A stretch of 64,000 bases of DNA, from the NCBI GenBank assembly GCA_009377635.1, contig WHTR01000001.1, positions 41,257 to 105,256 on the forward strand, given 5' to 3'. Numbering within the stretch: the first letter of the stretch is position 1; each line of letters opens with the position of its first letter. The notes beneath the pieces are model-generated. The model had not been told where the DNA came from. It searched no databases and saw only the letters and a list, made by a program, of their open reading frames with translations. The stretch comes from Chloroflexota bacterium (lineage in GTDB: Bacteria; Chloroflexota; UBA6077; SHYK01). Position numbers and translations under genes: made by a program. Positions 11,777 to 47,758 of the stretch are shown here, piece after piece.

Positions 11777-11779
11777 TGC

Positions 11780-30412: not shown

Positions 30413-30427
30413 ACCTCCATCGCCGGA

Positions 30428-31891: not shown

Positions 31892-31985
31892 CTCGATCCT
31901 CCTCCTCTACTGCTCACCGAACCTCGCGGTCGATGCTCCTGAATCGCGCCGATCAACGGGCGGCACCCCGCTGGGTCGGTAGATT

Positions 31986-32765: not shown

Positions 32766-32780
32766 GGTCGCCGCTCTCCT

Positions 32781-35118: not shown

Positions 35119-36997
35119 AATTCCTGTTTTGGCGATTTCGGGAAGTCATGGCTCGCATCATCATCGGCAGGGCGACGCCTGACAGCTCGCTCAGAAGACG
35201 CGGGGACGCTTCGTACGGTACCTTCAAACCTTCCCAAAGTGCCAGTTTTGAAAAATTGTGACCGGGCCTCGGTTAACTACGACGGAAGGCCATATCGTTG
35301 GCAGCGCTATCGCGAGCTGCCAACGGACCCCGCGCGGTCGAAGAACCTGGGCATGTACGGAATCTCCATGCGCGAGAACCGGGAGGTCCCACGGTCGCCC
35401 GTCCCGTTGATCACAGGGCGGGCCGCTCAGGGAAGGCCAAGGTCACAAGCCTGAGATGCACGACCGTGGGAAGTCGGACGTGCCCGTAGTACCTGCGAAG
35501 TCGCCGAACAAGGCCACGGCTGCGGAGGCGGCGGAGGAAAGGGGCACGGCCAAGGGAAACACGACCAGCACAACACGTCCCGGACGCAGCGCCGGGCCAG
35601 GCGTGCCACGCGGGCTGGATCGTGTGCGCGAAGTAGCACGAAGGGACAAGGAAGCACGGTTCACGGCGCTGCTGCACCACGTCGACGTGGACCGCCTCCG
35701 AGCGGCCTACCTGGCGATTCGCCCTCAGGCCGCGCCCGGGGGTGGACGGAGTGACGTGGCGAGCCTACGGCGAGGACCTGGAGGCCAACCTCCGGGACCT
35801 GCACGCCCGGGTCCATCGCGGCTCCTACCGGGCAAAGCCATCACGCCGGGCGTACAACCCGAAGGCGGACTGGCGGCAGCGGCCGCTCGGCATCGCCACG
35901 CTGGAGGACAAGATCGTCCAGCGGGCCGTCGTCGAGGTGCTCAACGCCAACTACGAGGTGGACTTCCTCGGCTTCTCCTACGGGTTCCGACCGGGGCGCA
36001 GACCGCACGACGCGCTCGATGCGCTCACGGGTGGGCTTGAACGAAGAAGGTGAACTGGGTGCTCGACGCGGATATCCGCGACTTCTTTTCCAGGCTTGAT
36101 CACACCTGGTTGGGGAAATTCCTCGAGCACCGTATCGCGGACCGACGGATCCTGCGTCTCATCCGTAAGTGGCTGAGCGCAGGGGTCATAGAGGACGGAA
36201 GCTGGTCAGAGAGCGTAGAGGGGGCACCGCAGGGAGCATCGGCATCGCCGTTGCTCGCAAACGCCTACCTTCACTACGTCGTGGACCGCTGGGTCCGGCA
36301 ATGGAGACGCCGGCACGCGCACGGAGACGTGGTCTTCGTGCAGTTCGCGGATGACTTCGTTGCCGGTTTCGAGCATCAGGCCGACGCACAGCAGTTCCTC
36401 GCCGATCTACGCGAACGGTTCGCGAAGTTCGGCCTGGAGCTGCATCCCGACAAGACGAGGCTCATCGAGTTCGGGTGCAACGCCGCCCGCAACCGAGCGG
36501 CCCGAGGCGACGGGAAGCCCGAGACGTTCGACTTCCTCGGCTTCACGCATCTCTGCGGGAAGCCGAAGAGCGGGCGCTTCTGGGTCAAGCGCAAGACCAT
36601 CTCGAAACGGATGCGAGCCAAGCTGGCCGAGGTCAATACCTCGCTGAAGCAGCGCCGGCACCAGCCCATACCGGTGCAAGGGCAATGGCTGGCAAGCGTG
36701 GTGCGAGGGCACCTCGCCTACTACGCCGTGCCCGGCAACACAGACGCCGTGGCGGCCTTCCGCACCCAGGTAACCCGGCACTGGTTCAAGGCGCTGCGGC
36801 GCCGCAGCCAGCGCTCGCGGATCAACTGGACCCGGATGGACCGTCTCGCCACTCGATGGCTACCGGCCGCCCGCGTGAAGCATCCCATCCCGAGTGCGCG
36901 CTTCGACGCTCGTACCCAAGGCAGGAGCCCAGTGCGCTAGCAGTGCACGCTGGGATCTGTGCGGGGGGCAGCCCGTAAGGGGTGTCCCTACCGCGAC
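35119..36997 (+). mobile_element. group II intron (intron 1), degenerate; 5' boundary uncertain
   Basis: RT/maturase ORF in domain IV. Candidate domain V GAGCCCAGTGCGCTAGCAGTGCACGCTGGGATC at 36925..36957 overlaps the RT stop. Ends …CGCGAC at 36997 (AY terminus). Confidence 0.6.
35456..36940 (+). pseudogene. group II intron reverse transcriptase/maturase with two 1-nt frameshifts (near 35735 and 36035)
   Basis: Leader MHDRGKSDVPVVPAKSPNK… then GVDGVTW…LGIATLEDKIVQ…FADD…maturase region, spread over three frames. Frameshift 1 lies in a GGGGG run. Confidence 0.65.
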
Positions 36998-37231: not shown

Positions 37232-37325
37232 GTGATGTTCGGACGCGCATTGAGGTTTGCGGAGGGCTGGCGTAAAATACCTACAGTCCGACGTCCACTA
37301 CCGGCAGTCGGCGGTCGGGGGAACG

Positions 37326-38498
37326 ATGGAGTACGGTAACGCGGCGGATCTCTATCACACCGGACCCGGTACCCTGGCTGGGGAGTACATGCGCAAGTTC
37401 TGGCAGCCCGTCCATCGGGCAAAGGACCTTCAGCGGGGGCAGGCCCTAGGCATCCGGATCATGAGCGAGGATTTCACCCTGTTCCGGGGCGACAGAGGGA
37501 CTCCCCGGCTCGTCGGTTCGCGCTGTGCGCACCGCGGCACTCAGCTCTCTATCGGCTGGGTGGAAGGCGATAGCATCCGCTGCCGCTACCACGGCTGGAG
37601 ATACAACGGGGAGGGCCAGTGCGTCGAGCAGCCCCTCGAGGAGCGCCCTGCTCCTGAGCGTGTCTGCATCCGCTCGTACCAGGTGGAGGAGTACCTTGGA
37701 CTGATCTTCGCCTACCTGGGAGCGGAGCCCGCCCCACCGCTACGCCGCTTCCCCGACTTCGATCGTCCAGGCTACGTCGAGGCAGGCCCGCCAGAGTACT
37801 GGCCGTGCAATTACATGACCCGGATCGACAACGATCCGCGGCACGTGGTATTTACCCATCGAGAGTCCTGGAAGCGGATGGGCGACCCGGTCCGGCCTGC
37901 CGGCACACGGCTGCTCGCCGAAGAGACCGAGTACGGCGTCCGAACCTACGGGGAGCCCGTGCCTGGGCGTCCCCAACGGTACACGTACTTTCACATGCCC
38001 AACATCAACCAGGTGCGGAGCCCCCGGATCGAGGGCACGCTCGACGACTCGCGGAACCTGGAGGCCGATCGACTCTTCTGGCGGGTTCCCATCGACGATG
38101 AGCGCTGCGTGAATTTCGTCGTCGACTACATCCCGCTGAAGCCGGAGGAGGCCGAGGAGTATGGAAGGCGGCGCGAGGCTGCGGGCGAGGCCAAGCCGGC
38201 GGAGCTGAACGCGCTGGGTGATGCCATCCTGGCTGGAAGGATGCGGCTCGAGGATCTTCCCGCCGACATGAGCATCTACAAGCTGTTCTGGATCGAGGAC
38301 TACATCACACAGGTTGGCCAGGGGGCACCGGCAGGCCGGCCGCCCGAGCACCTCGGCTCGGCGGACATGGGCGTCGTCCTGAAACGCAAGATCTGGGAGC
38401 GCGAGCTACGCGCCCTGGCCAATGGAGAGCCGCTGAAGCAGTGGTACACGCCCGCCGGGCTCGCAGAGGCGCAAGGCGCTCGGGTTCCAATCGGATGA
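37326..38498 (+). CDS. Rieske non-heme iron oxygenase alpha subunit
   Basis: MEYGNAADLYHTGPGT…KFWQP; CAHRG…C.YHGW. ATGA overlap with the next gene. Confidence 0.8.
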   Translation: MEYGNAADLYHTGPGTLAGEYMRKFWQPVHRAKDLQRGQALGIRIMSEDFTLFRGDRGTPRLVGSRCAHRGTQLSIGWVEGDSIRCRYHGWRYNGEGQCVEQPLEERPAPERVCIRSYQVEEYLGLIFAYLGAEPAPPLRRFPDFDRPGYVEAGPPEYWPCNYMTRIDNDPRHVVFTHRESWKRMGDPVRPAGTRLLAEETEYGVRTYGEPVPGRPQRYTYFHMPNINQVRSPRIEGTLDDSRNLEADRLFWRVPIDDERCVNFVVDYIPLKPEEAEEYGRRREAAGEAKPAELNALGDAILAGRMRLEDLPADMSIYKLFWIEDYITQVGQGAPAGRPPEHLGSADMGVVLKRKIWERELRALANGEPLKQWYTPAGLAEAQGARVPIG

Positions 38499-39307
38499 CG
38501 ACGAAGGTCGGGTTCGTCGGCCTCGGGACCATGGGGCGAGCCATCGCCGAGAACGACGTACGCGCAGGCTTCGACGTGATGGTCTACGACCTGCGCGACG
38601 AGCCAGTGCGCGAGATGGAAGCGCTCGGCGCGACGCGGGCCGGCTCGGCGCGCGAGGTCGGCCAGCACGCGGAGATCGTCCAGCTCGCCGTTCCCGACGA
38701 CGCCGCGGTCGAAGCCTCCGTGCTCGGGAAGGATGGCGTCCTGGCGCGAGCCAAGGCAGGCACGGTCATCGTGATCCACAGCACGATTCATCCGCGCACC
38801 GCGCAGCGCGTCGGGGAGCAGGCGAGGCCAAACGACGTGGCTGTGCTCGACGCGCAGATTACGGGCGCCCAGGTGGGCGCACGCACCCAGAGCCTTACGT
38901 TCATGGTCGGCGGCGACGCGGCGGCGTTCGAGCGAGCGCGACCCGTGCTCGCCGCGTCCGGCCGTGAGATCTTCCACATGGGCGAGCTGGGCGCGGGCGC
39001 GATGACGAAGGGCGCGCAGCAGGCCATGACGTGTATCAACGTAATGGCGGCGATGGAGGGCTTTCGCTTCGCCGAGCGGGCGAAGATCGACCGAGCCGCC
39101 TTCTGTCGCGTGCTCTCCGCGAGCACGGCTCAGAGCTATGTGATCGACCACCAGATGGGCCTCGGCGAACGCCATGGTGAGGGCGTCGAGCGGCGCCCCT
39201 TCCATCGGGGGCTGAAGGCGGTGCTCGCCATGGCGTTCGATCTCGACGTTCCAATGCCGGCGGCGGCGCTCGCCCAGCAGACGATTCCGTGGGGGGATGG
39301 GGGGTAG
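38495..39307 (+). CDS. NAD-binding beta-hydroxyacid dehydrogenase (HIBADH/6PGDH-like)
   Basis: VGFVGLGTMGRAIA dinucleotide fold; 270 aa. Confidence 0.75.
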   Translation: MTTKVGFVGLGTMGRAIAENDVRAGFDVMVYDLRDEPVREMEALGATRAGSAREVGQHAEIVQLAVPDDAAVEASVLGKDGVLARAKAGTVIVIHSTIHPRTAQRVGEQARPNDVAVLDAQITGAQVGARTQSLTFMVGGDAAAFERARPVLAASGREIFHMGELGAGAMTKGAQQAMTCINVMAAMEGFRFAERAKIDRAAFCRVLSASTAQSYVIDHQMGLGERHGEGVERRPFHRGLKAVLAMAFDLDVPMPAAALAQQTIPWGDGG

Positions 39308-39423
39308 GGGTTGGGGATTTGCGCGCCATCAAGGCATCTACTGCCCCGAGTGGAAGAATGCCGTGGAGGAACCGTATTGAGCGGATGGGTCTACAACAAA
39401 GCTGTCTGCGACAGAGGAGACGT

Positions 39424-40677
39424 GTGGTGACAACCGACGTCGCGGAACCTGCCCCAACACCTAGCTCCCAACCCCAATCCCCTACCCCACCGCTCACCGG
39501 CGTTCGCGTGTTGGACTTCACGCAGATCCTCGCCGGGCCGTTCTGCACGCGCCTGCTCGCGGACTTCGGCGCCGAGGTCCTCAAAGTCGAGACTGCGACT
39601 AGGACGGATCGAACCAGCGCTACCCGGCCCGATCCCAATGCGAAGGGCCGGCAGGACCGGCCGCCTGCCTTCCTCAATACGAACCGCAACAAGCGGTCGA
39701 TCGCGATCAATCTGAAGACGCCGAGCGGGAAAGGTCTCGCGACCAGGCTGGCGACCGTCGCTGACGTGGTGATCGAGAACTTCAGCGCTGACGTGATGGG
39801 CCGCCTGGGTCTGAGCTACGACCACCTGGCGCCTTTGAACCGCCGAATGATCTACGTCAGCATGGCCGGCTATGGCCATAGCGGGCCGCGTCGCGAGTGG
39901 ACCAGCATGAACATGAACTTGCAGGCGTACACTGGCCTGATGATGGTGAACGGCGCCGAGGGAGACCTCCCAACGTCGATTTCGAACTCGTGGAACGACT
40001 ACATCGGCGGCCTGCATGCCACGTTCGGCATCCTCCAGGCGCTGGCCGAGCGCCGCGTAACGGGCAAAGGTGCCAACCTGGACCTGGCGCAGTTCGAGTG
40101 CAGCGTGTCGACGCTCGCTCCCCTGCTGGTCGCCAGCGCGGCCAGCGGGCGGGCACCGCGCCGGATGGGCAATCGCTTCAGCCACGCGGCGCCCCAGGGC
40201 TGTTATCGGTGTGCGGGCAAGGACGAATGGTGCGTCATCACCATCCCGGACGATGACGCGTGGCACGCTCTGGTCGGCGTCGTGGACGCAAAGCTTTCCG
40301 ATCCACGATTCGACACCCTCGTTGCGCGACTGCGGCACCACGACGAGATCGACACCATTATCGAGGAGTGGACGAGCCAGCGCTCGAAGGAAGAGGTCGA
40401 GAGTCGCCTGGCGTCGGTCGGGGTCGCGGTCTCTCGGATGCGGCGCATCCGAGAGGTGTTCGAAGAGGAGGGCCCGACAGCATTCCGGTCGATGGAGGAT
40501 CCGCCGGGCCACATGACGGCGGCGACCGGCGTTCCCTTTTCGTTCGCCCGCAACGGCATCGCGCCCCTGGCCCCGGCGCCAAATCTCGGCGAGCACACCG
40601 AGCAGGCGCTCGGCGAGTGGCTCGGGCTCAGTCCGGACGAGGCGCGAGCGCTCGGCGAGCAGGGGGCGCTGGTGTGA
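39424..40677 (+). CDS. family III CoA-transferase (CaiB/BaiF-like), subunit 1
   Basis: LTGVRVLDFTQILAGPFCTRLLADFGAEVLKVE signature. GTG start is preceded by AGAGGAGA. Confidence 0.75.
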   Translation: MVTTDVAEPAPTPSSQPQSPTPPLTGVRVLDFTQILAGPFCTRLLADFGAEVLKVETATRTDRTSATRPDPNAKGRQDRPPAFLNTNRNKRSIAINLKTPSGKGLATRLATVADVVIENFSADVMGRLGLSYDHLAPLNRRMIYVSMAGYGHSGPRREWTSMNMNLQAYTGLMMVNGAEGDLPTSISNSWNDYIGGLHATFGILQALAERRVTGKGANLDLAQFECSVSTLAPLLVASAASGRAPRRMGNRFSHAAPQGCYRCAGKDEWCVITIPDDDAWHALVGVVDAKLSDPRFDTLVARLRHHDEIDTIIEEWTSQRSKEEVESRLASVGVAVSRMRRIREVFEEEGPTAFRSMEDPPGHMTAATGVPFSFARNGIAPLAPAPNLGEHTEQALGEWLGLSPDEARALGEQGALV

Positions 40678-41228
40678 CGGCCGAAGCGAGCACGATCATC
40701 ACACCCGAGCTGCAGGCGTGGGTAGGTAGCAGCGTCGGCCCGATTCAGCTGCCCGAGTCGCTCACTCCCGCCGACGTGCGCCGTTACCTCGACGCGACTG
40801 GCGACACGAACCCGCTCTGGACGGACGAATCGGTCGCCAGGGAGGCGGGCTACGCAGCCTGCCCCGTGCCGCCGATGCTAGTCTTCGAGCTGTACCGCCG
40901 GGCGGAGGGCGCAACCGGCGCTGGCGACGCCAACTTGTGGAAGGGTATGCCCCTGCCGACCAACTACACGGACACGCGGAACGCGGGTAACAAGATCGAA
41001 TGGCTGGCTCCGGCCTCGCTGGACGATCGGCTCGAGGTCCGCCATCAGCTCGCCGACATCACCGCGCGCCAGGGGCGGGCTGGCCTTGGCATCTACATCA
41101 CCCGGGAGTCGGAGTTCCGGAAGCAAGATGGCATCGTCGTCGTGCGACTGCGGGCGACGACCGTGAAGCTGCCGGCGAACAAGTCGGCGAAAGACGGAGA
41201 AGGGCGGTCGCGTGGCGCGGATCATTGA
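40674..41228 (+). CDS. MaoC-like hot-dog protein (hydratase N-terminal-type subunit, ChsH1-like)
   Basis: GTG overlaps the preceding stop (GTGA). Hot-dog fold length (~184 aa) with no catalytic hydratase motif, typical of the non-catalytic partner. Confidence 0.55.
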   Translation: MTAEASTIITPELQAWVGSSVGPIQLPESLTPADVRRYLDATGDTNPLWTDESVAREAGYAACPVPPMLVFELYRRAEGATGAGDANLWKGMPLPTNYTDTRNAGNKIEWLAPASLDDRLEVRHQLADITARQGRAGLGIYITRESEFRKQDGIVVVRLRATTVKLPANKSAKDGEGRSRGADH

Positions 41229-42342
41229 CCTCGCCGCGCATCCGGCTGTATACGCGACGCGGCTTTTCGCCGAGGTCGGTCACGACGTCATCCGTGTGGA
41301 GTCGGCGGCTGGCGACCAGGTGCGGCGGCTCGGCCCGTACCTAGGCGACCGCGAGGACCTGAACCACGGCGTCTTTCATCAGTATCTGAACGCGGGGAAG
41401 AAGAGCCTCGCGCTGAACGTCCAGTCGAGCGTCGGCAAGCAGATCCTCGTCGAACTCTGCCGCACGGCGGATGCCCTCGTCGTGATGGCGCCACCGCCGG
41501 TCGGTGAGCAGGATCTCGCCGCCGCGAATCCCCGCCTCGTTGTCACCATCGTGGAAGACGAGGAGCCGGAGATCTGCGCCTACGCCCGATCGGGACTGCT
41601 GTCGATTACCGGCCACCCCGGGCAACGCCCGGTCCTCATGGGCGGGCATGTCGCCTACGCGGCCACCGGCGCACTTGTCGCCGTCGCCACCGCCACGGCG
41701 CTTCTGGCCGCGGAGCAGAATGGCCAGGGTGACACCGTCCACGTCTCGCTGGCGGAGTGTCTGCAATCCCTGTTCGAGCAGGCGATGGTTACCTACGCAT
41801 CGACGGGAAGGAGCACCGAGCGGCGCGGCTATCGTGGCGCGGTGACGGCGGTATCGGGGGCCTTTCCGACCCAGGACGGCTACTCGATGTTTAGCATCCC
41901 CTCCCATCCCGAGGGGTGGCGCGGCTTCATGAGCTGGGTGCAGGACTCCGTGCTGCTCGAAGACGAGAGCCTGGTCGAGGAGACCGAGCGGCAGGAGAAG
42001 AAGGACTTCATCCTGGACCGGCTCGAAAGCTGGTCGCGCGGGTTCTTGAAGGAAGACATCGTGAGCGAGGCGCAGCGGCGTCACATTCCGGCGTCGCCCG
42101 TGGCGACGCCTCTCGATCTCGCCCGCGACCCACAGCTTATCCATCGCGGATTCCTGCGCGAGGTGGACCACGCCGGCCTCGGGAAAATGTTGTTCCCGAT
42201 CGGCGCCCTGGCGACCGTGCGGGGCACGCCGACCGGCTTCGCGCCCAGGTTGGGACAGCACACGACCGAGATCCTGAGCGAGCTTGGCTACTCAACGGAG
42301 GAGCGACAGGCCCTCATCGAGAGCCGAGTGCTATGGGCGTGA
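41212..42342 (+). CDS. family III CoA-transferase, subunit 2
   Basis: GTG start (VARIIDLAAH…) with GGAGAAGGG RBS; 376 aa. Family III fold without the full GxxxLD N-terminus. Confidence 0.7.
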   Translation: MARIIDLAAHPAVYATRLFAEVGHDVIRVESAAGDQVRRLGPYLGDREDLNHGVFHQYLNAGKKSLALNVQSSVGKQILVELCRTADALVVMAPPPVGEQDLAAANPRLVVTIVEDEEPEICAYARSGLLSITGHPGQRPVLMGGHVAYAATGALVAVATATALLAAEQNGQGDTVHVSLAECLQSLFEQAMVTYASTGRSTERRGYRGAVTAVSGAFPTQDGYSMFSIPSHPEGWRGFMSWVQDSVLLEDESLVEETERQEKKDFILDRLESWSRGFLKEDIVSEAQRRHIPASPVATPLDLARDPQLIHRGFLREVDHAGLGKMLFPIGALATVRGTPTGFAPRLGQHTTEILSELGYSTEERQALIESRVLWA

Positions 42343-42806
42343 TTTCCGCCGCCACCTCGGCACAGCCGTGGTTCGTGGACGTGCAGGTCGGTGACCAGAT
42401 CCCGACTCGAGAGTTTGGTCCGCTCACGATCCTGGAAACCGTTCGCTGGGCCGGTTTCCAGGAGAACTGGGCGCGGCTGCACTTCGACCGCGACTACGTG
42501 CGCGAGCACAGCGGGCTGCGCACGTTCATCGCAAGCGGCGCGTACCGCCAGGCCTTGCTGCTGCGCGTTGTAACCGACTGGATCGGCACCCGGGGCTGGC
42601 TGAGGAAGGTCAATGTCCGCCAGACCAGCCCGACATACGAGGGCGATCTGATGCGCTTCTCCGGTCGAATTGTCGAGAAGTCCGAATCGCCCGCTGACCC
42701 GTGGCTCGTCTGCGAGCTTCAGGGCGAGAACCAGGACGGGCAGCAGATCATGACGGGCCGCTGCACGGTGACGTTGCCTACCAGGGCCGCGGAGCCGAAA
42801 GGATGA
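42333..42806 (+). CDS. MaoC-like (R)-specific enoyl-CoA hydratase domain protein (ChsH2-like catalytic partner)
   Basis: ATG 42333 overlaps the upstream gene by 10 nt. MaoC dehydratase hot-dog; 157 aa. Confidence 0.6.
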   Translation: MGVISAATSAQPWFVDVQVGDQIPTREFGPLTILETVRWAGFQENWARLHFDRDYVREHSGLRTFIASGAYRQALLLRVVTDWIGTRGWLRKVNVRQTSPTYEGDLMRFSGRIVEKSESPADPWLVCELQGENQDGQQIMTGRCTVTLPTRAAEPKG

Positions 42807-43957
42807 GGGCTGGAACGCAGTGCGCTATAGTCGGATCGGCCGAGACCGAGGTCGGCAAGCTGCCGGGACGGTCAGCCCTGCAGCTGCGGCTGGAAGCCGC
42901 GGTGAAGGCGATCGAAGACGCCGGCCTCGACAAACACCGGATCGACGGGTTGGTCGCCCGCCAGCCGATGCGCAATCCCCAGTCGAACTACTCAGGGCTG
43001 ATGTCGGAGCGGCTGGGCATCGAGCCGTCCTACACTACGGACATCAGCCTGAGTGGCGCCGGGTCGGCATCCATGGTGCTGAGCGCTGTCTCCGCCATCC
43101 AGGCAGGCATCTGCACGACCGTGCTGTGCGTGGGCGGGGACGCAGCGACCGCCTATCGCGGCCAGCCATCGCGGGGCCGGCTCGCAAGCGAGGGCGAGGA
43201 TTTTCGCTCGCCGTTCGGCGCGGATGGCGCGCCGGTCATGTACGCGCTCGCCGCGCAACGACACATGTACGAGTACGGCACGAAATCGGAGCAGTTCGGC
43301 GCGGTGGCGGTGGCGTGCCGCCGGCATGCAAGTCTCAACCCCAACGCGCAGATGCGCACGCCGATCACCATCCAGGACCATCAGAGCTCCAAATTCATCG
43401 TCGAGCCGTTCCGCCTTCTAGATTGCTCGCTGGTGTCCGATGGCGCGGGCGCCATCATCGTTACCACCGCGGAGAGGGCGCAGGATCTCCCCCAACCCCC
43501 CGTGCAGGCGCTCGGGATGGGGAACGCGTGTCGCTTCAGCGAGATGACGTACAACGTCCCGATCACGACCACGGCGGCGCCCGACGCCGCTCGCCGCGCC
43601 TTCCGGATGGCAGGCGTCGATGCCGCCGACGTCGATTTCGCGGAGCTATACGACTGCTTTACGCCGGTCGTCGTGATGACGCTGGAGGACTACGGCTTTT
43701 GTGGGAAGGGCGAGGGCGGCGCCTTCGTCGAGAGCGGCCGCATTGAGCTGGGCGGCGAGCTACCGGTTAACACCCACGGCGGCCTGCTGTCCCAGGCGCA
43801 CATCGGCGGCATGCTCCACATCACCGAGGCTGTAACCCAGTTGCGCCACCAGGCGGGCGAGCGTCAGGTCGACGGGGCCAGGGTCGGCGTCGTCAGTGGC
43901 CAATGTGGCGAGCTCGGCATCCACGTCACGCTGGTTCTTGGAGCCGATGGCCGATGA
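42803..43957 (+). CDS. thiolase-like SCP-x/Ltp2-type protein (putative retro-aldolase/thiolase)
   Basis: ATGA overlap. Thiolase fold with the non-lipid-transfer-protein pattern (…CVGGDAATA…, no classical Cys-His-Cys thiolase triad evident). Confidence 0.7.
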   Translation: MRAGTQCAIVGSAETEVGKLPGRSALQLRLEAAVKAIEDAGLDKHRIDGLVARQPMRNPQSNYSGLMSERLGIEPSYTTDISLSGAGSASMVLSAVSAIQAGICTTVLCVGGDAATAYRGQPSRGRLASEGEDFRSPFGADGAPVMYALAAQRHMYEYGTKSEQFGAVAVACRRHASLNPNAQMRTPITIQDHQSSKFIVEPFRLLDCSLVSDGAGAIIVTTAERAQDLPQPPVQALGMGNACRFSEMTYNVPITTTAAPDAARRAFRMAGVDAADVDFAELYDCFTPVVVMTLEDYGFCGKGEGGAFVESGRIELGGELPVNTHGGLLSQAHIGGMLHITEAVTQLRHQAGERQVDGARVGVVSGQCGELGIHVTLVLGADGR

Positions 43958-44367
43958 AAGCTGCGCCGCGCAGGCCGCTGCCGCAAGTCTCCGACATCGA
44001 GACGAAGCCCTTCTGGGAGGGGTGCGCGCGCGGCGAGATCCTGCTCCAGCGCTGCCTCGACTGCAGCGCCGTCCGTCATCCGCCGAGTCCGATCTGCTCC
44101 GGCTGCCTTTCCTCTCGCCTTGAGTGGGTGCCAGCCAGCGGAAACGCCACCGTCTACAGCTTCGTGGTCGTCCACCGCGCGTTTCACGCGGCCTTCGAGG
44201 AAGACGTGCCCTACGTGGTGGCGATCGTCGAGCTCGAGGAAGGGCCGCACATGCTGAGCAACGTAGTCGAAGTACCGCCAGAGAGCGTGGAGATCGGCAT
44301 GCCGCTGCGGGTCTGCTTCGACTGCGTCTCTGACGAGGTCACACTGCCGAAGTTCAAGCCCGCATAG
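43954..44367 (+). CDS. DUF35 OB-fold/zinc-ribbon protein (Ltp2/BbsA/IpfE-type partner)
   Basis: ATGA overlap. CLDCSAVRHPPSPICSGCLS zinc ribbon followed by an OB fold (EGPHMLSNVVEV). Confidence 0.7.
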   Translation: MKAAPRRPLPQVSDIETKPFWEGCARGEILLQRCLDCSAVRHPPSPICSGCLSSRLEWVPASGNATVYSFVVVHRAFHAAFEEDVPYVVAIVELEEGPHMLSNVVEVPPESVEIGMPLRVCFDCVSDEVTLPKFKPA

Positions 44368-44424
44368 GGCTACGCGGACGAGAGGTATGCTCTCACAGTC
44401 GAAATGACCGAGCGGGGGCAGAGG

Positions 44425-45720
44425 ATGCTCAAGAAAGAGGAAAACGAGCTCCTGACGCGAGTGGGGCCCGGCACGCCCGGCGGCGAGATGCTGCGGCGCT
44501 ACTGGCAGCCCGCCGCCCTCTCCGTCGAGCTTCCGCCTGGCGGCCCGCCGGTCCCCCTACGCCTGCTGGGGGAGGGCCTCGTCATGTTCCGCGACCAGGA
44601 GGGGCGACTTGGCCTCCTCGGACTGCACTGCAGCCATCGTGGGGCTGACCTCAGCTATGGGCGGCTGGAGGATGGTGGAATCCGCTGCCTTTATCACGGC
44701 TGGCTCTACGACGTCGAGGGCCGATGCCTCGAACAGCCGGGCGAGCCGGCTGGCAGCACGTTTCACGACCGTATTCGTCACCCCGCCTACCGGTGCCACG
44801 AGGTCGCAGGCGTGATCTTTACCTATATGGGCCCAGGCGAGCCACCGCTCTTCCCGAACTACGAGCTGTTCCGCGTGCCGGACGACAACCGCTGGGTTCA
44901 CAAGCAGTACCACGAGTGCAGCTATCTCCAGGGCAACGAGGGGAACATCGACTCGATTCACGTGCGGTTTCTGCACCGTTATCTGCCCGGCAGTCGGTTC
45001 CGCCGCTCCAGGGAGCTGGACGGCGAGGGCCGCCCGGCTCGACCCTTCGATGAAAGCTTGCCCTCCTCAGCGTCGAGGTGCGAGGAGACCCACTTCGGCG
45101 TTCGCATCTACTCGCTCCACGACACGCACGCCGCCACCTACATGCGGACGACAAACTTCGTTATCCCGCTGACGTGTGCCGTGCCGGGCGGGCCCGCGCC
45201 GCCGGGTGACGGCTACCTGATGAACTGGCACGTGCCGATTGACGACACGCACCACTGGCGGTTCTCCATGGCCTTCAAGCGCTCCGGCCCGCTCGACCCG
45301 AACTACGCGCAGGCGCGGGCCTCTGTTACCGACGAGACCTTCCGCTCGCCCCGCAATAAGGCGAACCGCTACCTACAGGATCGCGAGGAGCAGAAGCACG
45401 ACACGTACGCCGGCATGGGCCCGATCTTCGTCGTGCAGGACGCCTTTGCGACCGAGACCGCGGGCGAGATCCAGGACCGCTCGAGAGAGCACCTGGCGGC
45501 GAGCGATGCCGGTCTCGCAGCCGCTCGCCGGATGATGCTGCGGGCAATCAAGGACGTGCAGGAGGACCGCGACCCGCCGCACGTCATCCGTCGACCTGAA
45601 GACCAGGACCGCCTGCTGGAGATCAGCGTGACCAGCGAGCAGGTGCCAGTCGGCACGACGTGGGAGCAATACCGCGTGCAGCGCGGGGTCACGTTCGGCG
45701 CCATCGGCATCGAGGACTAG
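44425..45720 (+). CDS. Rieske non-heme iron oxygenase alpha subunit
   Basis: MLKKEENELLTRVGPGTPGGEMLRRYWQP; CSHRG…C.YHGW; ends in TAG. Confidence 0.8.
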   Translation: MLKKEENELLTRVGPGTPGGEMLRRYWQPAALSVELPPGGPPVPLRLLGEGLVMFRDQEGRLGLLGLHCSHRGADLSYGRLEDGGIRCLYHGWLYDVEGRCLEQPGEPAGSTFHDRIRHPAYRCHEVAGVIFTYMGPGEPPLFPNYELFRVPDDNRWVHKQYHECSYLQGNEGNIDSIHVRFLHRYLPGSRFRRSRELDGEGRPARPFDESLPSSASRCEETHFGVRIYSLHDTHAATYMRTTNFVIPLTCAVPGGPAPPGDGYLMNWHVPIDDTHHWRFSMAFKRSGPLDPNYAQARASVTDETFRSPRNKANRYLQDREEQKHDTYAGMGPIFVVQDAFATETAGEIQDRSREHLAASDAGLAAARRMMLRAIKDVQEDRDPPHVIRRPEDQDRLLEISVTSEQVPVGTTWEQYRVQRGVTFGAIGIED

Positions 45721-45725: not shown

Positions 45726-47444
45726 ATGGATCTCCACCTTCCGGTCCGGGCGCTGTCGACGCTTGTGCTCATGCTTGCCGCGTGTACGCCGACCAGCGGC
45801 CCGCGAGAGCAAGCCGCGGAACCCGTGCAGCAGCAGAGTGCTTCTCGTGCCCTAGTCATGGCGGTCAACACCGAGGTGAAGACGCTCGCGGCGAAGATGC
45901 TCGGCCCGACTAACCCTGAGCGGACGACGCGGATCTTCAATGCCGGCCTCTCGCTCGTCGACGCCCAGGGCGTCGTGCGCCCGTACATGGCCGAGGCTCT
46001 GCCCCAGCTCAACAGTGATAGTTGGAGGGTCTTTCCGGACGGGCGCATGGAGACGACGTGGAAGCTCCGCCCGGGCCTCACATGGCACGATGGGACCCCG
46101 CTGAGCGCGGAGGATTTCGCCTTCGGCTACCGCGTCTATACCTCGCCGCTCGCCGTCTTCTCGGCGAAGCCGCAACATCTGATGTCCGAAGTCTCCGCCC
46201 CGGACCCCACGACGCTCATCATCACCTGGAGCAGGTCGTATCCCGATGCGACACAGCTCTCGTCCACCGAGTTCGGCCCGCTCCCCCGCCATCTGCTGGA
46301 ACCGCAGTTCTCCAGCTACCTGCAGGACGCCGCCAACCCAGAGCCCTTCCTCGCCCTCCGCTACTGGAGCACGGAGTTCGTCGGTAACGGCCCATTCCGC
46401 CTAGCGAGCTGGGATGCCGGTATCCAGATGGAGGGCGCGGCTTTCGACGGCCATCCGCTCGGACGTCCGAAGATTGACCGGGTCGTCATCCGCTTCTTCA
46501 CCGACAACAACGTCACCTTGACGAACATCCTGGCGGGCAACGTCGACCTCACGATGATCCAGACGCTCCCGTTCTAGCAAGGCTTGCTGCTCGAACGGGA
46601 CTGGGCGACCAGCAAGCGTGGCTCGGTGATCTACCAGTCGACGTCCACGCAGACTATCGCCGTCCAGCAGCGTCCGGAGTTTGTTGGCTCCCGTGCCCTC
46701 CTGGACGTCCGCGTCCGAAGGGCTCTTGCCCACGGAATCGATCGCGATGCGCTGAACGAGGCGCTCTTCTCAGGCAAGGGTTCGATCGTCCACTCGTGGG
46801 TGGATCCCAGGCAGTCGATCTTTCCCGAGGTGGACCGGGCCATCACGAAGTATCCCTACGATCCACTTCGCCTTGACCAGCTCTTGACCGAAGCCGGCTT
46901 CCATCGCGACCGGGAAGGCTTTTTCGCGAGCGAGGCGGGCGAGCGATTTCAGCCGAGTCTGTGGGTCACGTTCAGTACCCAGCTCGAGCGGCAGCTCGCG
47001 ATCATGACGGATACGTGGCGGCAGGCGGGCGTCGACTTCCAACCGTATATCATCCCGGGCGCGCAGGCGCGCGATAACCAGTTCCGGTCAACGTTCCCCG
47101 GCCTGCTCGGCTACGGAGTCAGTCCCGCCACGATCTCCGCGCTTGAGACGTTCACCACGGACCAGATTGGCAGCGCGTCGACGCGCTGGGGCGGCCAGAA
47201 CCGCGGCGGGTGGGCAAGCCTCGAGTACGACCGCCTGCTCGTCGCATTCCACAGCACGCTCGATACGACGGCCCGCACCCGACACGCGGTGGACATGCTC
47301 AAGCTGCTGAGCGAGGAGGCGCCGACCTATCCAGCCTTCCGCGACCAGGGCATCATCTGCTACGTCGCGGGCCTCAGGGGACCGGAACAGCAACTGCCCG
47401 AAGCCCTCGCCCACTGGAACATCCACCTCTGGGAGCTCAGTTAA
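45726..47444 (+). pseudogene. SBP family 5 lipoprotein paralog interrupted by an in-frame TAG (46576..46578) at a conserved Glu position
   Basis: Signal MDLHLPVRALSTLVLMLAAC. ...TMIQTLPF*QGLLLERDW aligns to ...VRWEQAQVLRNEW of 20994..22730. Downstream frame is intact to 47444. Confidence 0.7.
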
Positions 47445-47454: not shown

Positions 47455-47758
47455 ATCGCGGTAGGGACAGCCCTTGCGGGCTGCCCCCCGCACAGATCCC
47501 AGCGCGCGGCATTACCGCACTGGGCTCCTGCCTCGGGTACGGGCGTCGAAGCGCTCACGAGGGGAGGATGCCTTGTCCCTTCGTGCTCCTTCACGCACAC
47601 GATCCAGCTCGTTTGGCACGCCTGGCCCGGCACTGCGTCCGGGACGTGTTGTGCTGGTCGTGTTCCCCTTGGCCGGGCGCCTTTCCTCCACCACCTCCGC
47701 GGCCGAAGCCTTGTTCGGCGGCTTCGCAGGTGTCGGGTCGGGGGAGGCGGCGGAGCAC
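47455..47758 (-). mobile_element. 3' segment of an intron-1-like group II intron (host intron 1'): RT leader remainder, ORF deletion, domain V/VI
   Basis: Reverse complement aligns to 35494..35660 and 36900..36997 of intron 1. Candidate domain V at 47495..47527. Ends …CGCGAT|CCTCAAG 11 nt after the SBP stop. Confidence 0.55.

What the first reader, a model, noticed from the sequence alone, without database searches (positions are those of the whole stretch)
37326..45720. Translationally coupled 9-gene operon joining Rieske oxygenases to a ChsH1/ChsH2/Ltp2-DUF35-type CoA-dependent side-chain cleavage module
Gene order is Rieske alpha, HIBADH-like dehydrogenase, family III CoA-transferase, MaoC N-type hot-dog, second family III CoA-transferase, MaoC catalytic hot-dog, SCP-x/Ltp2-like thiolase, DUF35 zinc-ribbon/OB protein, Rieske alpha. 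Six of the eight junctions overlap (four as ATGA, two by 10 and 17 nt), which implies one transcript and tight stoichiometry. Two adjacent family III transferase subunits recall heteromeric BbsEF/SptAB-type enzymes. The split MaoC pair plus an Ltp2-like enzyme with DUF35 is the steroid side-chain (ChsH1/ChsH2/Ltp2) and ibuprofen (IpfD/IpfE) retro-aldol/thiolytic logic. Its combination with KshA/phthalate-type oxygenases and no acyl-CoA dehydrogenase or ligase is not a described pathway. It suggests oxidative attack on an aromatic or alicyclic acid whose carboxylated side chain is activated by CoA transfer and removed by hydration and retro-aldol cleavage.
Basis: partly seen in the sequence, partly recalled or inferred. 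Interest (0 to 1): 0.7.

Follow-up and report, generated by a model that had tools for sequence, protein, structure and literature searches.

The report
Uncharacterised CoA-transfer, hydration, aldol-cleavage operon
A soil Chloroflexota genome carries an intact nine-gene operon that probably shortens an aromatic-derived acid without using ATP, and its core gene set recurs across bacterial phyla but has never been characterised.

Summary
Nine co-directional genes lie at 37326-45720, all nine family assignments are confirmed, and six of the eight junctions overlap (3 ATGA, 1 GTGA, 10 nt, 17 nt).

- **CoA-transferases.** The two family III transferases pair reciprocally with the two chains of benzylsuccinate CoA-transferase. 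Only g3 keeps the catalytic Asp.
- **"Thiolase" g7.** It has Gly where the nucleophilic Cys should be, plus a YDCF motif. That is the aldolase signature of Sal/Ltp2, not a thiolase signature. Its DUF35 partner is free-standing.
- **Hot-dog pair.** Both belong to the (R)-hydratase clade, not the thioesterases. The canonical Asp-His dyad is split between them (g4 has Asp/Trp, g6 has Asn/His).

The operon is modular.

- g3-g4-g5-g6 is a widespread four-gene unit in soil metagenomes. Its downstream partner is not the thiolase-like gene in 40 of 42 loci; where identified it is a gene typical of aromatic catabolism.
- g3-g8 is a six-gene cassette found in the same order in other phyla. In two Alphaproteobacteria it sits beside hydroxyquinol and beta-ketoadipate pathway genes.
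- The g1-g2-g3 linkage is conserved in three Chloroflexota lineages.
- g9 is a local paralogue of other Rieske genes in the window.

No curated family model and no paper I could find describes this system. The most likely function is CoA transfer, then hydration, then retro-aldol cleavage, with an unknown substrate. I rate it a new variant of a known kind, of moderate interest.

The parts
37250..37278 (+). Sigma-70-like promoter candidate (TTGAGG-17-TAAAAT), 48 nt upstream of the g1 ATG
   Evidence: It is the only match in 36.8-47.8 kb. One match is what shuffled sequence gives (0.9 expected), so only its position is suggestive.
37326..38498 (+). g1: Rieske non-haem iron oxygenase alpha subunit (phthalate/LigXa-VanA-like clade, divergent catalytic domain)
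   Evidence: Pfam Rieske 1e-19. CxH...CxxH and DxxHxxxxH motifs are present in the translation. Best PDB hit is 7fhr, a putative phthalate dioxygenase, at 3e-31. There are 2308 homologues, which JGI names DDVA O-demethylase. The g1-g2-g3 linkage is conserved in L001/L002 (73%) and L168 (78%).
38495..39307 (+). g2: beta-hydroxyacid dehydrogenase (HIBADH / tartronate-semialdehyde-reductase family)
   Evidence: Pfam NAD_binding_2 9e-41 and NAD_binding_11. NCBIfam hits to tartronate semialdehyde reductase and HIBADH are far below equivalog cut-offs. It has a conserved GxGxxTKxAQQA motif with the catalytic Lys. It overlaps g1 by ATGA.
39385..40677 (+). g3: family III CoA-transferase, BbsF-like catalytic subunit (start 39385 or 39424)
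   Evidence: Pfam 4e-99. Best PDB hit is 9fn0_B at 8e-59. The catalytic Asp sits in NSWNDYIGG, aligned to the Asp of 4ed9, YfdE, SUGCT and 9fn0_B, and is conserved in orthologues.
40674..41228 (+). g4: hot-dog protein, MaoC N-type (FAS1_DH_region), ChsH2/HadA-like partner subunit
   Evidence: Pfam 3e-19. Weak PDB hits go only to ChsH1/ChsH2 chains. It has a conserved ATGDxNPLW motif, with Asp kept and His replaced by Trp. It overlaps g3 by GTGA.
41212..42342 (+). g5: family III CoA-transferase, BbsE-like subunit without the catalytic Asp
   Evidence: Pfam 8e-57. Best PDB hit is 9fn0_A at 2e-40, against 1e-21 for 9fn0_B. The Asp position holds Tyr here and in 9fn0_A, and is variable and never Asp in seven orthologues.
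42333..42806 (+). g6: hot-dog protein of the (R)-hydratase clade (HadB/ChsH1-like) with an atypical motif
   Evidence: PDB hits are HadB at 1e-8 and ChsH1/ChsH2 chains (4wnb_B, 4w78_B) at 2e-4. The AlphaFold2 model has pLDDT 83. The top 37 Foldseek PDB hits are all hydratase/dehydratase hot dogs. The invariant motif is WAGxQENxxxLHxDR, with Asn where HadB has Asp36 and the His kept.
42803..43957 (+). g7: SCP-x-type thiolase-like protein lacking the nucleophilic Cys; predicted retro-aldolase (Sal/Ltp2 type)
   Evidence: Pfam Thiolase_C_1 3e-51. PDB hits are 4u4e 5e-82, Ltp2 6ok1 2e-65, 9myr 1e-53 and BbsB 3e-28. Gly85 aligns to the Cys nucleophile of the archaeal thiolase. The motif is YDCF, against YDHF in Ltp2 and YDCY in the 9myr chain. 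In 30 orthologues G85 and Y283 are invariant and C285 is present in 24.
43954..44367 (+). g8: stand-alone DUF35 protein (Cys4 zinc ribbon plus OB fold), partner of g7
   Evidence: Pfam OB_ChsH2_C 8e-26 and zf-ChsH2 4e-11. CxxC...CxxC is visible in the translation. It lies next to the g7 homologue in 76 of 80 genome loci.
44425..45720 (+). g9: Rieske oxygenase alpha subunit, phthalate/LigXa family; a lineage-specific paralogue
   Evidence: Pfam Rieske plus LigXa_C. PDB hits are 7fhr 9e-63 and 7fjl 2e-62. It is 49% identical to the window Rieske at 29033-30427 and 38% to that at 53993-55462. It is not found beside the module in any related locus.
45726..47444 (+). Tenth co-directional gene: SBP_bac_5 solute-binding protein interrupted by an in-frame TAG (46575-46577)
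   Evidence: Pfam matches both halves to SBP_bac_5. The translation shows a single TAG in frame. An SBP_bac_5 gene precedes the g1 homologue in L001, L002 and L168.

Best explanation
This is a catabolic operon of an uncultured soil Chloroflexota bacterium. Its core (g3-g8) removes a carboxylated side chain or fragment from an organic acid, probably aromatic-derived, without using ATP.

**Step 1, inferred from homology.** The g3/g5 heteromer is a BbsEF-type family III CoA-transferase with one catalytic and one non-catalytic subunit. It moves CoA from a donor thioester, most likely succinyl-CoA or the thioester released in step 3, onto the substrate's carboxyl group.

**Step 2, inferred and the least secure.** The g4/g6 hot-dog heteromer adds water across an alpha,beta-double bond to give a beta-hydroxyacyl-CoA.

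**Step 3, inferred from active-site residues.** g7 cannot carry out thiolysis because it lacks the nucleophilic Cys. Held by the free-standing DUF35 protein g8, it cleaves the C-alpha to C-beta bond by a retro-aldol reaction using a Tyr283/Cys285 pair. The products are an aldehyde or ketone and a short acyl-CoA.

**Accessory genes.** The Rieske monooxygenase g1 and the beta-hydroxyacid dehydrogenase g2 are fixed partners of the transferase in Chloroflexota. They most likely prepare the acid (O-demethylation or hydroxylation, then alcohol oxidation) or process the released product. g9 is an extra paralogue for a further oxygenation.

The overlapping junctions are consistent with one transcript and coupled translation.
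For: - **Families.** All nine are confirmed.
- **Transferase.** g3 and g5 match chains B and A of 9fn0 reciprocally (203 vs 78 bits; 142 vs 80 bits). The catalytic Asp is present only in g3 and its orthologues.
- **g7.** Gly is at the nucleophile position and is invariant in 30 orthologues. The YDCF motif carries an invariant Tyr. The equivalent Tyr302 and Cys304 are the proven catalytic residues of the aldolase CtSal, and a Gly at the nucleophile position rules out thiolysis there (PMC12329534).
- **g6.** Sequence and model fall among (R)-hydratases.
- **Conserved gene order.** g3-g4-g5-g6-g7-g8 occurs in the same order in Sphingosinicella, Brevundimonas, a Thermodesulfobacteriota MAG and an unassigned contig.
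- **Catabolic context of the six-gene cassette.** Neighbours include hydroxyquinol 1,2-dioxygenase, maleylacetate reductase, PcaIJF, aldehyde dehydrogenase, an FAD aromatic hydroxylase and NMT1-type binding proteins.
- **Catabolic context of the four-gene unit.** Its downstream partners include a DHDPS-family aldolase, aldehyde dehydrogenase, extradiol dioxygenase, meta-cleavage-type hydrolase and Amidohydro_2.
- **Rieske linkage.** g1-g2-g3 is conserved in three Chloroflexota lineages.
- **Gene integrity and absences.** The ORFs are intact, with six overlapping junctions. No ligase or acyl-CoA dehydrogenase occurs among the ORFs scanned in the window.
Against: - No biochemical data exist for any member, and the substrate is unknown.
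- Neither hot-dog subunit has the full Asp-His hydratase dyad. g6 has Asn45/His50 and g4 has Asp/Trp. The motif loop is the low-confidence part of the g6 model.
- The closest relatives that share g1-g2 (L001/L002) and a Binatia locus (L004) lack the split hot-dog genes but keep the transferase and aldolase. Hydration is therefore not always needed.
- The four-gene unit is not followed by g7/g8 in 40 of 42 loci. The hydratase-to-aldolase hand-off is therefore not obligatory.
- The Ltp2 general acid Tyr344 is His here. Six of 30 orthologues lack Cys285, and an extra invariant Cys368 is unexplained.
- No electron-transfer partners for the Rieske proteins are in the window.
- The adjacent binding-protein gene carries a stop codon, and mobile elements flank the operon.
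Confidence: 0.5

Rival explanations
1. Ibuprofen-type (Ipf-like) logic. The transferase makes the CoA thioester. The Rieske oxygenase g1 then hydroxylates the carbon beta to the thioester, for example the ipso ring carbon of an arylacetyl-, arylpropionyl- or arylsuccinyl-CoA. g7/g8 cleave this oxygenase-made beta-hydroxyacyl-CoA directly. The hot-dog pair serves a parallel or different substrate.
For: - Chloroflexota relatives keep Rieske, transferase pair, thiolase-like protein and DUF35 without the split hot-dog genes. L001/L002 have none at all. L085/L086 carry a Rieske gene directly after DUF35 and only a distant fused hot-dog gene.
- The g1-g2-g3 linkage is conserved.
- IpfD/IpfE are a thiolase-like/DUF35 pair acting after a Rieske dioxygenase. 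This point rests on established knowledge of the ipf pathway; I did not read a source for it here.
Against: - In the window the hot-dog genes are intact and interleaved with the transferase genes exactly as in Rieske-free cassettes of other phyla.
- g1 is alpha-only and of the O-demethylase/monooxygenase-like clade, unlike the two-subunit IpfAB.
- The role of g2 is unexplained.
- There is no CoA ligase.
Confidence: 0.2
2. Bbs-like thiolytic beta-oxidation: CoA transfer, hydration, oxidation of the 3-hydroxyacyl-CoA by g2, then thiolysis by g7/g8 acting as in BbsAB.
For: - The transferase pair is most similar to BbsEF.
- BbsB and BbsA appear among the weaker hits of g7 and g8.
- A dehydrogenase is present in the operon.
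Against: - g7 and all 30 orthologues have Gly at the nucleophilic Cys position, which excludes covalent thiolysis (PMC12329534).
- g7 is much closer to Ltp2 and Sal than to BbsB (224 and 185 bits against 102 bits).
- g2 belongs to the free beta-hydroxyacid dehydrogenase family, not to the 3-hydroxyacyl-CoA or SDR dehydrogenases.
- g2 is absent from the six-gene cassettes of other phyla.
Confidence: 0.08
3. A mosaic in decay. The nine genes were brought together by mobile elements in a plastic genomic island and no longer work as one pathway.
For: - A frameshifted group II intron reverse transcriptase lies directly upstream, and a complete group II intron lies 2 kb downstream.
- The next gene has an in-frame stop.
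- Truncated GMC oxidoreductase and Rieske genes lie nearby, along with integrases and IS elements.
Against: - All nine ORFs are intact and keep their cofactor and catalytic motifs.
- Six junctions overlap.
- The order g3-g8 is conserved across phyla, and g1-g2-g3 in three lineages.
- Close relatives at 81-87% identity keep g3-g8 in the same order (L088, L089).
Confidence: 0.07
4. A condensing (biosynthetic) role. The thiolase-like/DUF35 pair would form C-C bonds, as in the archaeal thiolase/HMG-CoA synthase/DUF35 complex or PhlABC.
For: Those systems are detectable homologues of g7 (6esq 1e-39, PhlC 9e-23). Aldol reactions are reversible.
Against: - There is no HMG-CoA synthase or KAS III partner.
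- There is no nucleophilic Cys.
- The neighbours are binding proteins, oxygenases and ring-cleavage genes.
Confidence: 0.03

Closest known systems
Benzylsuccinate beta-oxidation enzymes BbsEF (succinyl-CoA:benzylsuccinate CoA-transferase) and BbsAB (benzoylsuccinyl-CoA thiolase with a DUF35 subunit) of anaerobic toluene degraders
   Same: - It has two paralogous family III subunits. g3 and g5 match them one-to-one, and the catalytic Asp sits in only one subunit.
- It pairs a thiolase-fold protein with a separate DUF35 zinc-ribbon/OB protein.
- No ligase is needed.
   Different: - There is no BbsG acyl-CoA dehydrogenase, no BbsCD SDR dehydrogenase, no crotonase-type BbsH and no benzylsuccinate synthase.
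- g7 lacks the thiolase nucleophile and is only distantly related to BbsB (3e-28).
- The hydratase is hot-dog type.
- The context is aerobic, with Rieske oxygenases.
Steroid side-chain enzymes ChsH1-ChsH2-Ltp2 (Actinobacteria) and Shy-Sal (Proteobacteria)
   Same: - A MaoC-type hydratase is followed by a Cys-less thiolase-like aldolase bound to DUF35.
- g7 shares Gly at the nucleophile position and the YD[C/H][F/Y] motif with its catalytic Tyr. Like Sal, it keeps the Cys (PMC12329534).
- The best fold match of g6 is ChsH1.
   Different: - DUF35 is a free-standing protein here, not fused to the hydratase.
- The hot-dog catalytic dyad is not canonical.
- Activation is by CoA transfer, not by a ligase.
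- There is no acyl-CoA dehydrogenase and there are no steroid ring-degradation genes.
- Ltp2 Tyr344 is His here, and an extra invariant Cys368 is present.
- The neighbours point to aromatic compounds.
Ibuprofen catabolic genes ipfABDEF (Sphingomonas Ibu-2 type)
   Same: Rieske oxygenase genes sit in one cluster with a thiolase-like protein and a DUF35 protein that remove an acyl-CoA side chain.
   Different: - Ipf uses a CoA ligase (IpfF) and a two-subunit (alpha/beta) dioxygenase.
- Here there are a transferase pair, alpha-only phthalate/LigXa-type oxygenases, an additional hot-dog pair and a HIBADH-type dehydrogenase.
Itaconate degradation (CoA-transferase Ict, MaoC-type itaconyl-CoA hydratase Ich, citramalyl-CoA lyase Ccl)
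   Same: It has the same three-step logic without ATP: CoA transfer, hot-dog hydration, then C-C lyase releasing an acyl-CoA. This is a functional analogy from established knowledge. g3 and g5 give sub-threshold hits to succinyl-CoA:mesaconate CoA-transferase.
   Different: - The lyase here is a thiolase-fold protein with DUF35, not an HpcH/CitE-type lyase.
- Both the transferase and the hydratase are heteromeric.
- The gene context is aromatic catabolism.

Membership tests
BbsEF-type heteromeric family III CoA-transferase | Two paralogous CoA_transf_3 subunits encoded together | tested here: met
   g3 and g5 both hit PF02515 over its full length. They are 24% identical to each other.
BbsEF-type heteromeric family III CoA-transferase | Each subunit corresponds to a different subunit of the solved BbsEF enzyme | tested here: met
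   g3 scores 203 bits to 9fn0_B and 78 to 9fn0_A. g5 scores 142 bits to 9fn0_A and 80 to 9fn0_B.
BbsEF-type heteromeric family III CoA-transferase | Catalytic Asp (Frc Asp169 position) present in only one subunit | tested here: met
   Asp is present in g3 (NSWNDYIGG) and in 9fn0_B. Tyr is present in g5 and in 9fn0_A. This is conserved in orthologues.
BbsEF-type heteromeric family III CoA-transferase | Succinyl-CoA-dependent activation of benzylsuccinate, within a bbs/bss gene context | tested here: not met
   No BbsG, BbsCD, BbsH or glycyl-radical enzyme genes were found among the ORFs scanned in the window. Substrate and CoA donor cannot be tested with these tools.
Thiolase-like aldolases Ltp2 / Sal with DUF35 | SCP-x-type thiolase fold with the nucleophilic Cys replaced (Gly) | tested here: met
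   Thiolase_C_1 at 3e-51. Gly85 aligns to the Cys of the AACASG motif in 6esq and to the Gly of 6ok1 and 9myr. It is invariant in 30 orthologues.
Thiolase-like aldolases Ltp2 / Sal with DUF35 | YD[H/C][F/Y] motif with the catalytic Tyr, and the Cys as general acid in Sal | tested here: met
   The motif is YDCF at 283-286. Y283 is invariant and C285 is present in 24 of 30 orthologues. The roles of these residues are from PMC12329534.
Thiolase-like aldolases Ltp2 / Sal with DUF35 | Ltp2-type second catalytic Tyr (Tyr344) | tested here: not met
   The aligned residue is His333, which is nearly invariant in the orthologue group. Sal has Gln at this position.
Thiolase-like aldolases Ltp2 / Sal with DUF35 | DUF35 (zinc ribbon plus OB) partner | tested here: met
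   g8 hits both DUF35 Pfam domains. Here it is a separate protein, whereas in ChsH2 and Shy it is fused to the hydratase (PMC12329534; PMC11321319 abstract).
Thiolase-like aldolases Ltp2 / Sal with DUF35 | Steroid catabolic gene context and a steroid-CoA substrate | tested here: not met
   No steroid ring-degradation or ChsE-type acyl-CoA dehydrogenase genes appear in the window or in related loci.
Thiolase-like aldolases Ltp2 / Sal with DUF35 | Retro-aldol activity on a beta-hydroxyacyl-CoA | not testable with these tools
   This needs an enzyme assay.
Heteromeric MaoC hydratases (ChsH1-ChsH2, HadAB) | Two single hot-dog subunits of the (R)-hydratase clade, one catalytic and one partner | tested here: met
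   g4 hits FAS1_DH_region at 3e-19 and ChsH chains weakly. g6 hits HadB at 1e-8. Foldseek's top 37 hits for g6 are all hydratases or dehydratases.
Heteromeric MaoC hydratases (ChsH1-ChsH2, HadAB) | Complete hydratase-2 motif with the Asp and His dyad in the catalytic subunit | tested here: not met
   g6 has Asn45 at the HadB Asp36 position, and His50 is kept. g4 has the Asp but Trp in place of His. Both patterns are conserved in orthologues.
Ibuprofen ipf pathway | CoA ligase IpfF, two-subunit Rieske dioxygenase IpfAB, and IpfD/IpfE | tested here: not met
   There is no AMP-binding ligase and no Ring_hydroxyl_B beta subunit in the operon or among the ORFs scanned in the window. Only the thiolase-like/DUF35 pair is shared.
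Phthalate / LigXa-type Rieske oxygenases (alpha-only) | Rieske CxH...CxxH cluster, DxxHxxxxH iron site and a LigXa_C/VanA_C-type catalytic domain | tested here: met
   g9 has Rieske plus LigXa_C and hits 7fhr and 7fjl at about 1e-62. g1 has both motifs in its sequence, but Pfam does not recognise its C-terminal domain. Its best hit is 7fhr at 3e-31, and some homologues carry VanA_C.
Phthalate / LigXa-type Rieske oxygenases (alpha-only) | Dedicated ferredoxin and/or reductase partner | tested here: not met
   None was found among the ORFs scanned in the 64 kb window. A partner could be encoded elsewhere in the genome.
HIBADH / beta-hydroxyacid dehydrogenases | NAD_binding_2 plus NAD_binding_11 domains, a catalytic Lys, and a score above a curated equivalog cut-off | tested here: inconclusive
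   Both domains and the Lys are present. All equivalog models score at about half of their cut-offs (175 against 341 bits for tartronate semialdehyde reductase). It is a family member of unknown specificity.

The most novel reading that the evidence does not exclude
The g3-g8 cassette may be a self-priming, CoA-catalytic lyase system. In this reading the acyl-CoA released by the aldolase g7/g8 is the same thioester that the BbsEF-like transferase uses as its donor. Succinyl-CoA is the obvious candidate, by analogy with the Bbs enzymes.

The net reaction would then be a substituted alkylidene- or arylidene-succinate-type acid plus water giving an aldehyde plus succinate. It would need no ATP, no redox step and no net CoA. 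The interleaved gene order (transferase F, hot dog N, transferase E, hot dog C) and the catalytic residues split between the two hot dogs would reflect one multi-enzyme complex. That complex could have arisen by duplication of a transferase/hot-dog gene pair.
Probability: 0.15. Interest if true: 0.75.

Novelty: new variant of a known kind. Interest (0 to 1): 0.55.

Why it matters
Each enzyme type is known from toluene, steroid, ibuprofen or itaconate catabolism. This particular combination has no characterised member. It joins a BbsEF-like transferase, an atypical split hot-dog pair, a Sal/Ltp2-type aldolase and a free DUF35 protein.

The combination is nonetheless widespread.
- The g6 family alone has more than 600 members, mostly from soil metagenomes.
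- The six-gene cassette crosses phyla.
- The four-gene core sits in many aromatic catabolic clusters.

If the mechanism is right, it is an ATP-independent way to cut C-C bonds in plant- or lignin-derived acids. It would also give function to a large set of genes now annotated as 'thiolase', 'acyl dehydratase' or 'hypothetical'. The hot-dog pair, with its dyad divided between subunits, is a specific enzymological puzzle.

Tried and rejected
- **Exact-sequence look-up of g7.** It found no contig, although an identical NCBI protein exists (P0001).
- **Bile-salt side-chain cluster of Sphingobium sp. Chol11** (Rieske plus hot-dog proteins). I read the paper and rejected the link. That cluster has a ligase, an acyl-CoA dehydrogenase and amidases, and no thiolase-like protein or DUF35.
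- **Rhodococcus cou genes for hydroxycinnamates.** Rejected, because the cleaving enzyme CouO is an amidohydrolase.
- **SYK-6 VceA/VceB for vanilloyl acetic acid.** Rejected, because the two genes together span only 1.5 kb and are described as an acetyl-CoA-dependent converting enzyme plus a thioesterase.
- **Papers on Sphingosinicella sp. LY1275 or on this gene combination.** None found.
- **The structure paper for 9fn0.** It is not in the library.
- **Plasmid search with g6.** It gave only hits of 35% identity or less, with generic names.
- **NCBIfam.** No model reaches its cut-off for any of the nine proteins.
- **Rfam.** It shows no RNA element inside the operon.
- **Terminator and promoter scan.** Nothing above chance.
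- **First structure-prediction job.** I re-ran it without them.
- **My first guess at the transferase catalytic Asp.** I had placed it at the racemase-type position. This was wrong, and I corrected it from the alignments to YfdW, 4ed9 and SUGCT.

Full report
**What is in the sequence.**

The window is about 66% GC. On the + strand between 37326 and 45720 there are nine ORFs with coding-type GC3 of about 0.8.
- g1 (37326-38498): Rieske.
- g2 (38495-39307): NAD_binding_2 plus NAD_binding_11, the HIBADH type.
- g3 (39385 or 39424 to 40677): CoA_transf_3.
- g4 (40674-41228): FAS1_DH_region / MaoC.
- g5 (41212-42342): CoA_transf_3.
- g6 (42333-42806): MaoC, just below the Pfam cut-off.
- g7 (42803-43957): Thiolase_C_1.
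- g8 (43954-44367): the two DUF35 domains.
- g9 (44425-45720): Rieske plus LigXa_C.

Six of the eight junctions overlap: ATGA three times, GTGA once, 17 nt and 10 nt. The g2/g3 and g8/g9 junctions are short gaps.

A tenth co-directional gene, an SBP_bac_5 binding protein, starts 5 nt after g9 but has an in-frame TAG. No terminator-like site above chance lies inside the operon. The only promoter-like site in 11 kb sits 48 nt before g1, and one site is also what chance gives.

An NCBI protein identical to g7 (P0001) is annotated as coming from a Chloroflexi bacterium MAG and sits on a 113.6 kb contig; g6 is annotated under locus tag GEU73_00345.

**The two CoA-transferases.**

g3's best solved relative is chain B of benzylsuccinate CoA-transferase 9fn0 (8e-59). 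g5's best is chain A (2e-40). Each scores much lower against the other chain.

In the printed alignments the catalytic Asp of family III enzymes is present in g3 (NSWNDYIGG). It aligns with the Asp of 4ed9, YfdE, SUGCT and 9fn0_B. By residue count it is also the Asp in the LGDSNTG segment of YfdW. g5 and 9fn0_A both carry Tyr at that position. Orthologues keep this asymmetry.

This is strong sequence evidence for a BbsEF-type heteromer with one catalytic subunit. The donor and acceptor remain unknown, and no NCBIfam equivalog model comes near its cut-off.

**The "thiolase".**

g7's closest solved relatives are:
- 4u4e, deposited simply as "Thiolase" (5e-82).
- The steroid aldolase Ltp2, 6ok1 (2e-65).
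- 9myr (1e-53).
- BbsB, which is far weaker (3e-28).

In the alignments the nucleophilic Cys of a true thiolase (AACASG in 6esq) corresponds to Gly85 in g7, as it does in Ltp2 and 9myr. The HDCF motif of SCP-2 thiolases is YDCF in g7, YDHF in Ltp2 and YDCY in 9myr. Among 30 orthologues Gly85 and Tyr283 are invariant, and Cys285 is present in 24.

The 2025 study of the bile-acid aldolase CtSal makes three relevant points (PMC12329534):
- The Tyr and Cys of YDCY are its catalytic base and acid.
- A Gly at the nucleophile position makes thiolysis impossible.
- YDCF-type thiolase-like proteins are probably aldolases.

g7 therefore has the aldolase signature and not the thiolase signature. It differs from Ltp2 in having His333 at the Tyr344 position. 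Its orthologue group also has an additional invariant Cys368, whose role is unknown.

g8 is a free-standing DUF35 protein with a Cys4 ribbon. A DUF35 gene lies next to the thiolase-like gene in 76 of the 80 genome loci recovered.

**The hot-dog pair.**

They are not.
- g4 is a FAS1_DH_region protein whose only solved relatives are ChsH1/ChsH2 chains.
- g6 matches HadB and ChsH1/ChsH2 chains.
- An AlphaFold2 model of g6 has pLDDT 83. Its 37 best PDB fold matches are all (R)-hydratases or dehydratases: ChsH1, PhaJ, HadB, other MaoC-like proteins and HTD2. Thioesterases appear only further down, with poor TM-scores.

The canonical Asp-His dyad, however, is not complete in either subunit.
- g6 and its orthologues have an invariant ...QEN-x3-LH... 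motif. Asn occupies the HadB Asp36 position, and the His is kept.
- g4 and its orthologues have ATGDxNPLW. The Asp is kept, and Trp replaces the His.
- The motif loop is the low-confidence part of the model.

Hydration is therefore the most likely role by family, but it is the least secure step in the proposed mechanism.

**Modularity, seen from related loci.**

Using g7 orthologues:
- The order g3-g4-g5-g6-g7-g8 is identical in five places: Sphingosinicella sp. LY1275 (L003), Brevundimonas guildfordensis (L084), a Thermodesulfobacteriota MAG (L005), an unassigned 413 kb contig where NMT1-type binding proteins flank it (L087), and close relatives of the window (L088/L089, 81-87% identity).
- In the two Alphaproteobacteria the cassette follows an HpcH aldolase, an aldehyde dehydrogenase, PcaIJ, PcaF, maleylacetate reductase and hydroxyquinol 1,2-dioxygenase. 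A BNR/Sortilin-like protein follows it.
- A Stellaceae locus adds an FAD aromatic-ring hydroxylase and carries a fused double hot dog.
- Chloroflexota-type loci L001/L002 have SBP_bac_5, g1, g2, g3, g5, g7 and g8 with no hot-dog genes. A Binatia locus likewise lacks them.
- L085/L086 keep a g1-type Rieske gene directly after DUF35.
- A third lineage, L168, has SBP_bac_5, an acetyltransferase (GNAT) gene, then g1 (78% identity), g2 and g3.

Using g6 as the probe in metagenomes:
- 23 of 27 loci with enough upstream sequence have g3-g4-g5 directly before g6.
- 40 of 42 loci with enough downstream sequence have no g7 after it.
- The next gene varies among the 37 loci examined. It is a DHDPS-family aldolase (9 loci), DUF3891 (5), an aldehyde dehydrogenase (4) or an alpha/beta-hydrolase (4). 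A two-domain VOC extradiol-dioxygenase-type protein follows in one three-locus cluster and in one further locus. Amidohydro_2, a Zn-ADH, BNR/Sortilin or an NMT1 binding protein follow in others.

g9 is 49% and 38% identical to two other Rieske genes in the same window, and it is not linked to the module in any other locus.

The operon is thus built from four layers:
- a widespread four-gene transferase/hot-dog core;
- the aldolase/DUF35 pair;
- a Chloroflexota-specific Rieske/dehydrogenase pair;
- a local Rieske paralogue.

**Most likely mechanism.**

I take the operon to be catabolic.
1. CoA transfer onto a carboxylic acid by g3/g5.
2. Hydration of the enoyl-thioester by g4/g6.
3. Retro-aldol cleavage by g7/g8, giving an aldehyde or ketone plus a short acyl-CoA.

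g1 is a LigXa/VanA-like monooxygenase. g2 is a beta-hydroxyacid dehydrogenase of unknown specificity. These two would prepare the acid or process the product. All steps are inferred. None is shown.

The gene context of related loci is hydroxyquinol and beta-ketoadipate genes, aromatic hydroxylases, extradiol dioxygenases, meta-cleavage hydrolases and aldehyde dehydrogenases. The window itself is rich in LigXa-type Rieske, UbiD, cupin, GFO/IDH/MocA and binding-protein genes. Both point to aromatic or lignin-type substrates.

The absence of a ligase and of an acyl-CoA dehydrogenase among the ORFs scanned across the whole window fits an ATP- and redox-independent cleavage module.

**Rival explanations.**
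- **Ipf-like scheme (my estimate, about 0.2).** The Rieske enzyme makes the beta-hydroxy group on the thioester, and g7/g8 cleave it directly. Relatives that lack hot-dog genes support this. The intact interleaved hot-dog genes here and the alpha-only O-demethylase-like nature of g1 argue against it.
- **Bbs-like thiolysis (about 0.08).** The missing nucleophile in g7 and the family of g2 contradict it.
- **Decaying mosaic (about 0.07).** The flanking group II introns and the stop codon in the binding-protein gene suggest it. Nine intact, overlapping and widely syntenic genes argue against it.
- **Biosynthetic condensation.** It has little support.

**Comparison with what is known, and novelty.**

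The system works like a hybrid of four known systems:
- Bbs: the heteromeric transferase and the separate DUF35 subunit.
- ChsH1-ChsH2-Ltp2 and Shy-Sal: a hot-dog hydratase followed by a Cys-less thiolase-fold aldolase.
- Ipf: the association with a Rieske oxygenase.
- The itaconate pathway: the overall three-step logic.

It is a member of none of them. The membership tests fail on gene context, on the hydratase dyad, on the Ltp2 second Tyr, and on the ligase and beta subunit of Ipf.

I found no curated model, no source annotation beyond generic names and no paper that describes the cassette. I rate it a new variant of a known kind.

**Most novel reading not excluded.** The aldolase may release the very acyl-CoA that the transferase consumes. 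The cassette would then be a CoA-catalytic lyase, possibly one complex, as the interleaved gene order and the split hot-dog dyad hint. I give this about 0.15.

**Limits.**
- All functional statements rest on homology, conserved residues and gene context.
- The structure model covers only g6.
- No complex could be modelled.
- The locus collections are samples.
- The counts of loci depend on contig length.

Noticed in passing
window 45726-47444 (+): An SBP_bac_5 binding-protein gene starts 5 nt after the g9 stop. It is interrupted by a single in-frame TAG at 46575-46577. Both halves match the same Pfam family in register. This could be a pseudogene, a sequencing error or read-through.
   Followed up: partly
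window 35456-36940 (+) and 47732-50217 (-): A group II intron reverse transcriptase, split by a frameshift, lies directly upstream of g1. A complete group II intron lies 2 kb downstream of the operon. It comprises the D1-D4 and D5/D6 Rfam matches plus an RT/maturase ORF at 47818-49062.
   Followed up: partly
window 40674-41228 and 42333-42806; orthologues in L003, L005, L084, L087: The hydratase-2 motif is divided between the two hot-dog subunits. g4 keeps the Asp but has Trp for His (ATGDxNPLW). g6 keeps the His but has Asn for Asp (QENxxxLH). Both patterns are conserved across phyla. The genes for the two heteromers are interleaved in the order F, N, E, C.
   Followed up: partly
L088-L167 (soil metagenome contigs): The four-gene unit g3-g4-g5-g6 is far more common than the six-gene cassette. 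40 of 42 loci have no thiolase-like gene after g6. Instead they have a variable partner, including a DHDPS-family aldolase, DUF3891, an aldehyde dehydrogenase, an alpha/beta-hydrolase or an extradiol dioxygenase.
   Followed up: partly
L003 11618-12730, L084 11618-12730, L006 10834-11979, L153 1070-2239: A protein of about 370 aa with BNR/Sortilin-Vps10-like repeats directly follows the cassette in three alphaproteobacterial loci. It also follows the four-gene unit in one metagenome contig. Its function is unknown.
   Followed up: no
window 42803-43957 (g7), residue 368: The g7 orthologue group has an invariant Cys368 in a GQCG motif near the C-terminus. Ltp2, 9myr and 4u4e have no Cys there in the printed alignments. 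From memory, it may lie near the position of the CxG acid/base Cys of classical thiolases.
   Followed up: no
window 131-4640 (-) and 23295-31906 (-): Sets of NMT1-type binding protein, SBP_bac_5 binding protein, UbiD-family decarboxylase and LigXa-type Rieske genes recur in the window. Overall there are two UbiD genes, five intact SBP_bac_5 genes plus the interrupted one downstream of g9, and seven Rieske genes (g1, g9 and five others, one truncated). This looks like a paralogue-rich catabolic island.
   Followed up: no
window 5724-9595 (-): Three consecutive cupin-domain genes, each with Cupin_2 hits (two matched stretches in the first), lie in a stretch of lower GC (0.58-0.61) than the rest of the window. 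From memory, gentisate- and quercetin-type dioxygenases have this fold.
   Followed up: no
window 10460-19281 and 61661-63460: Mobile-element genes cluster here. They are a recombinase zinc-ribbon protein, three tyrosine-integrase ORFs (12016-15365), an IS3-type transposase pair with an ALIL frameshift pseudoknot (18502-18615), and a DDE transposase.
   Followed up: no
window 31986-32780 (-), 34216-35118 (-), 50751-51839 (-), 55463-56086 (-): Several apparently truncated catabolic genes are present. A 264-aa Rieske/LigXa_C protein lacks its middle part. A GMC oxidoreductase lacks most of its N-terminal domain. Two GFO/IDH/MocA ORFs are short or N-terminally incomplete.
   Followed up: no
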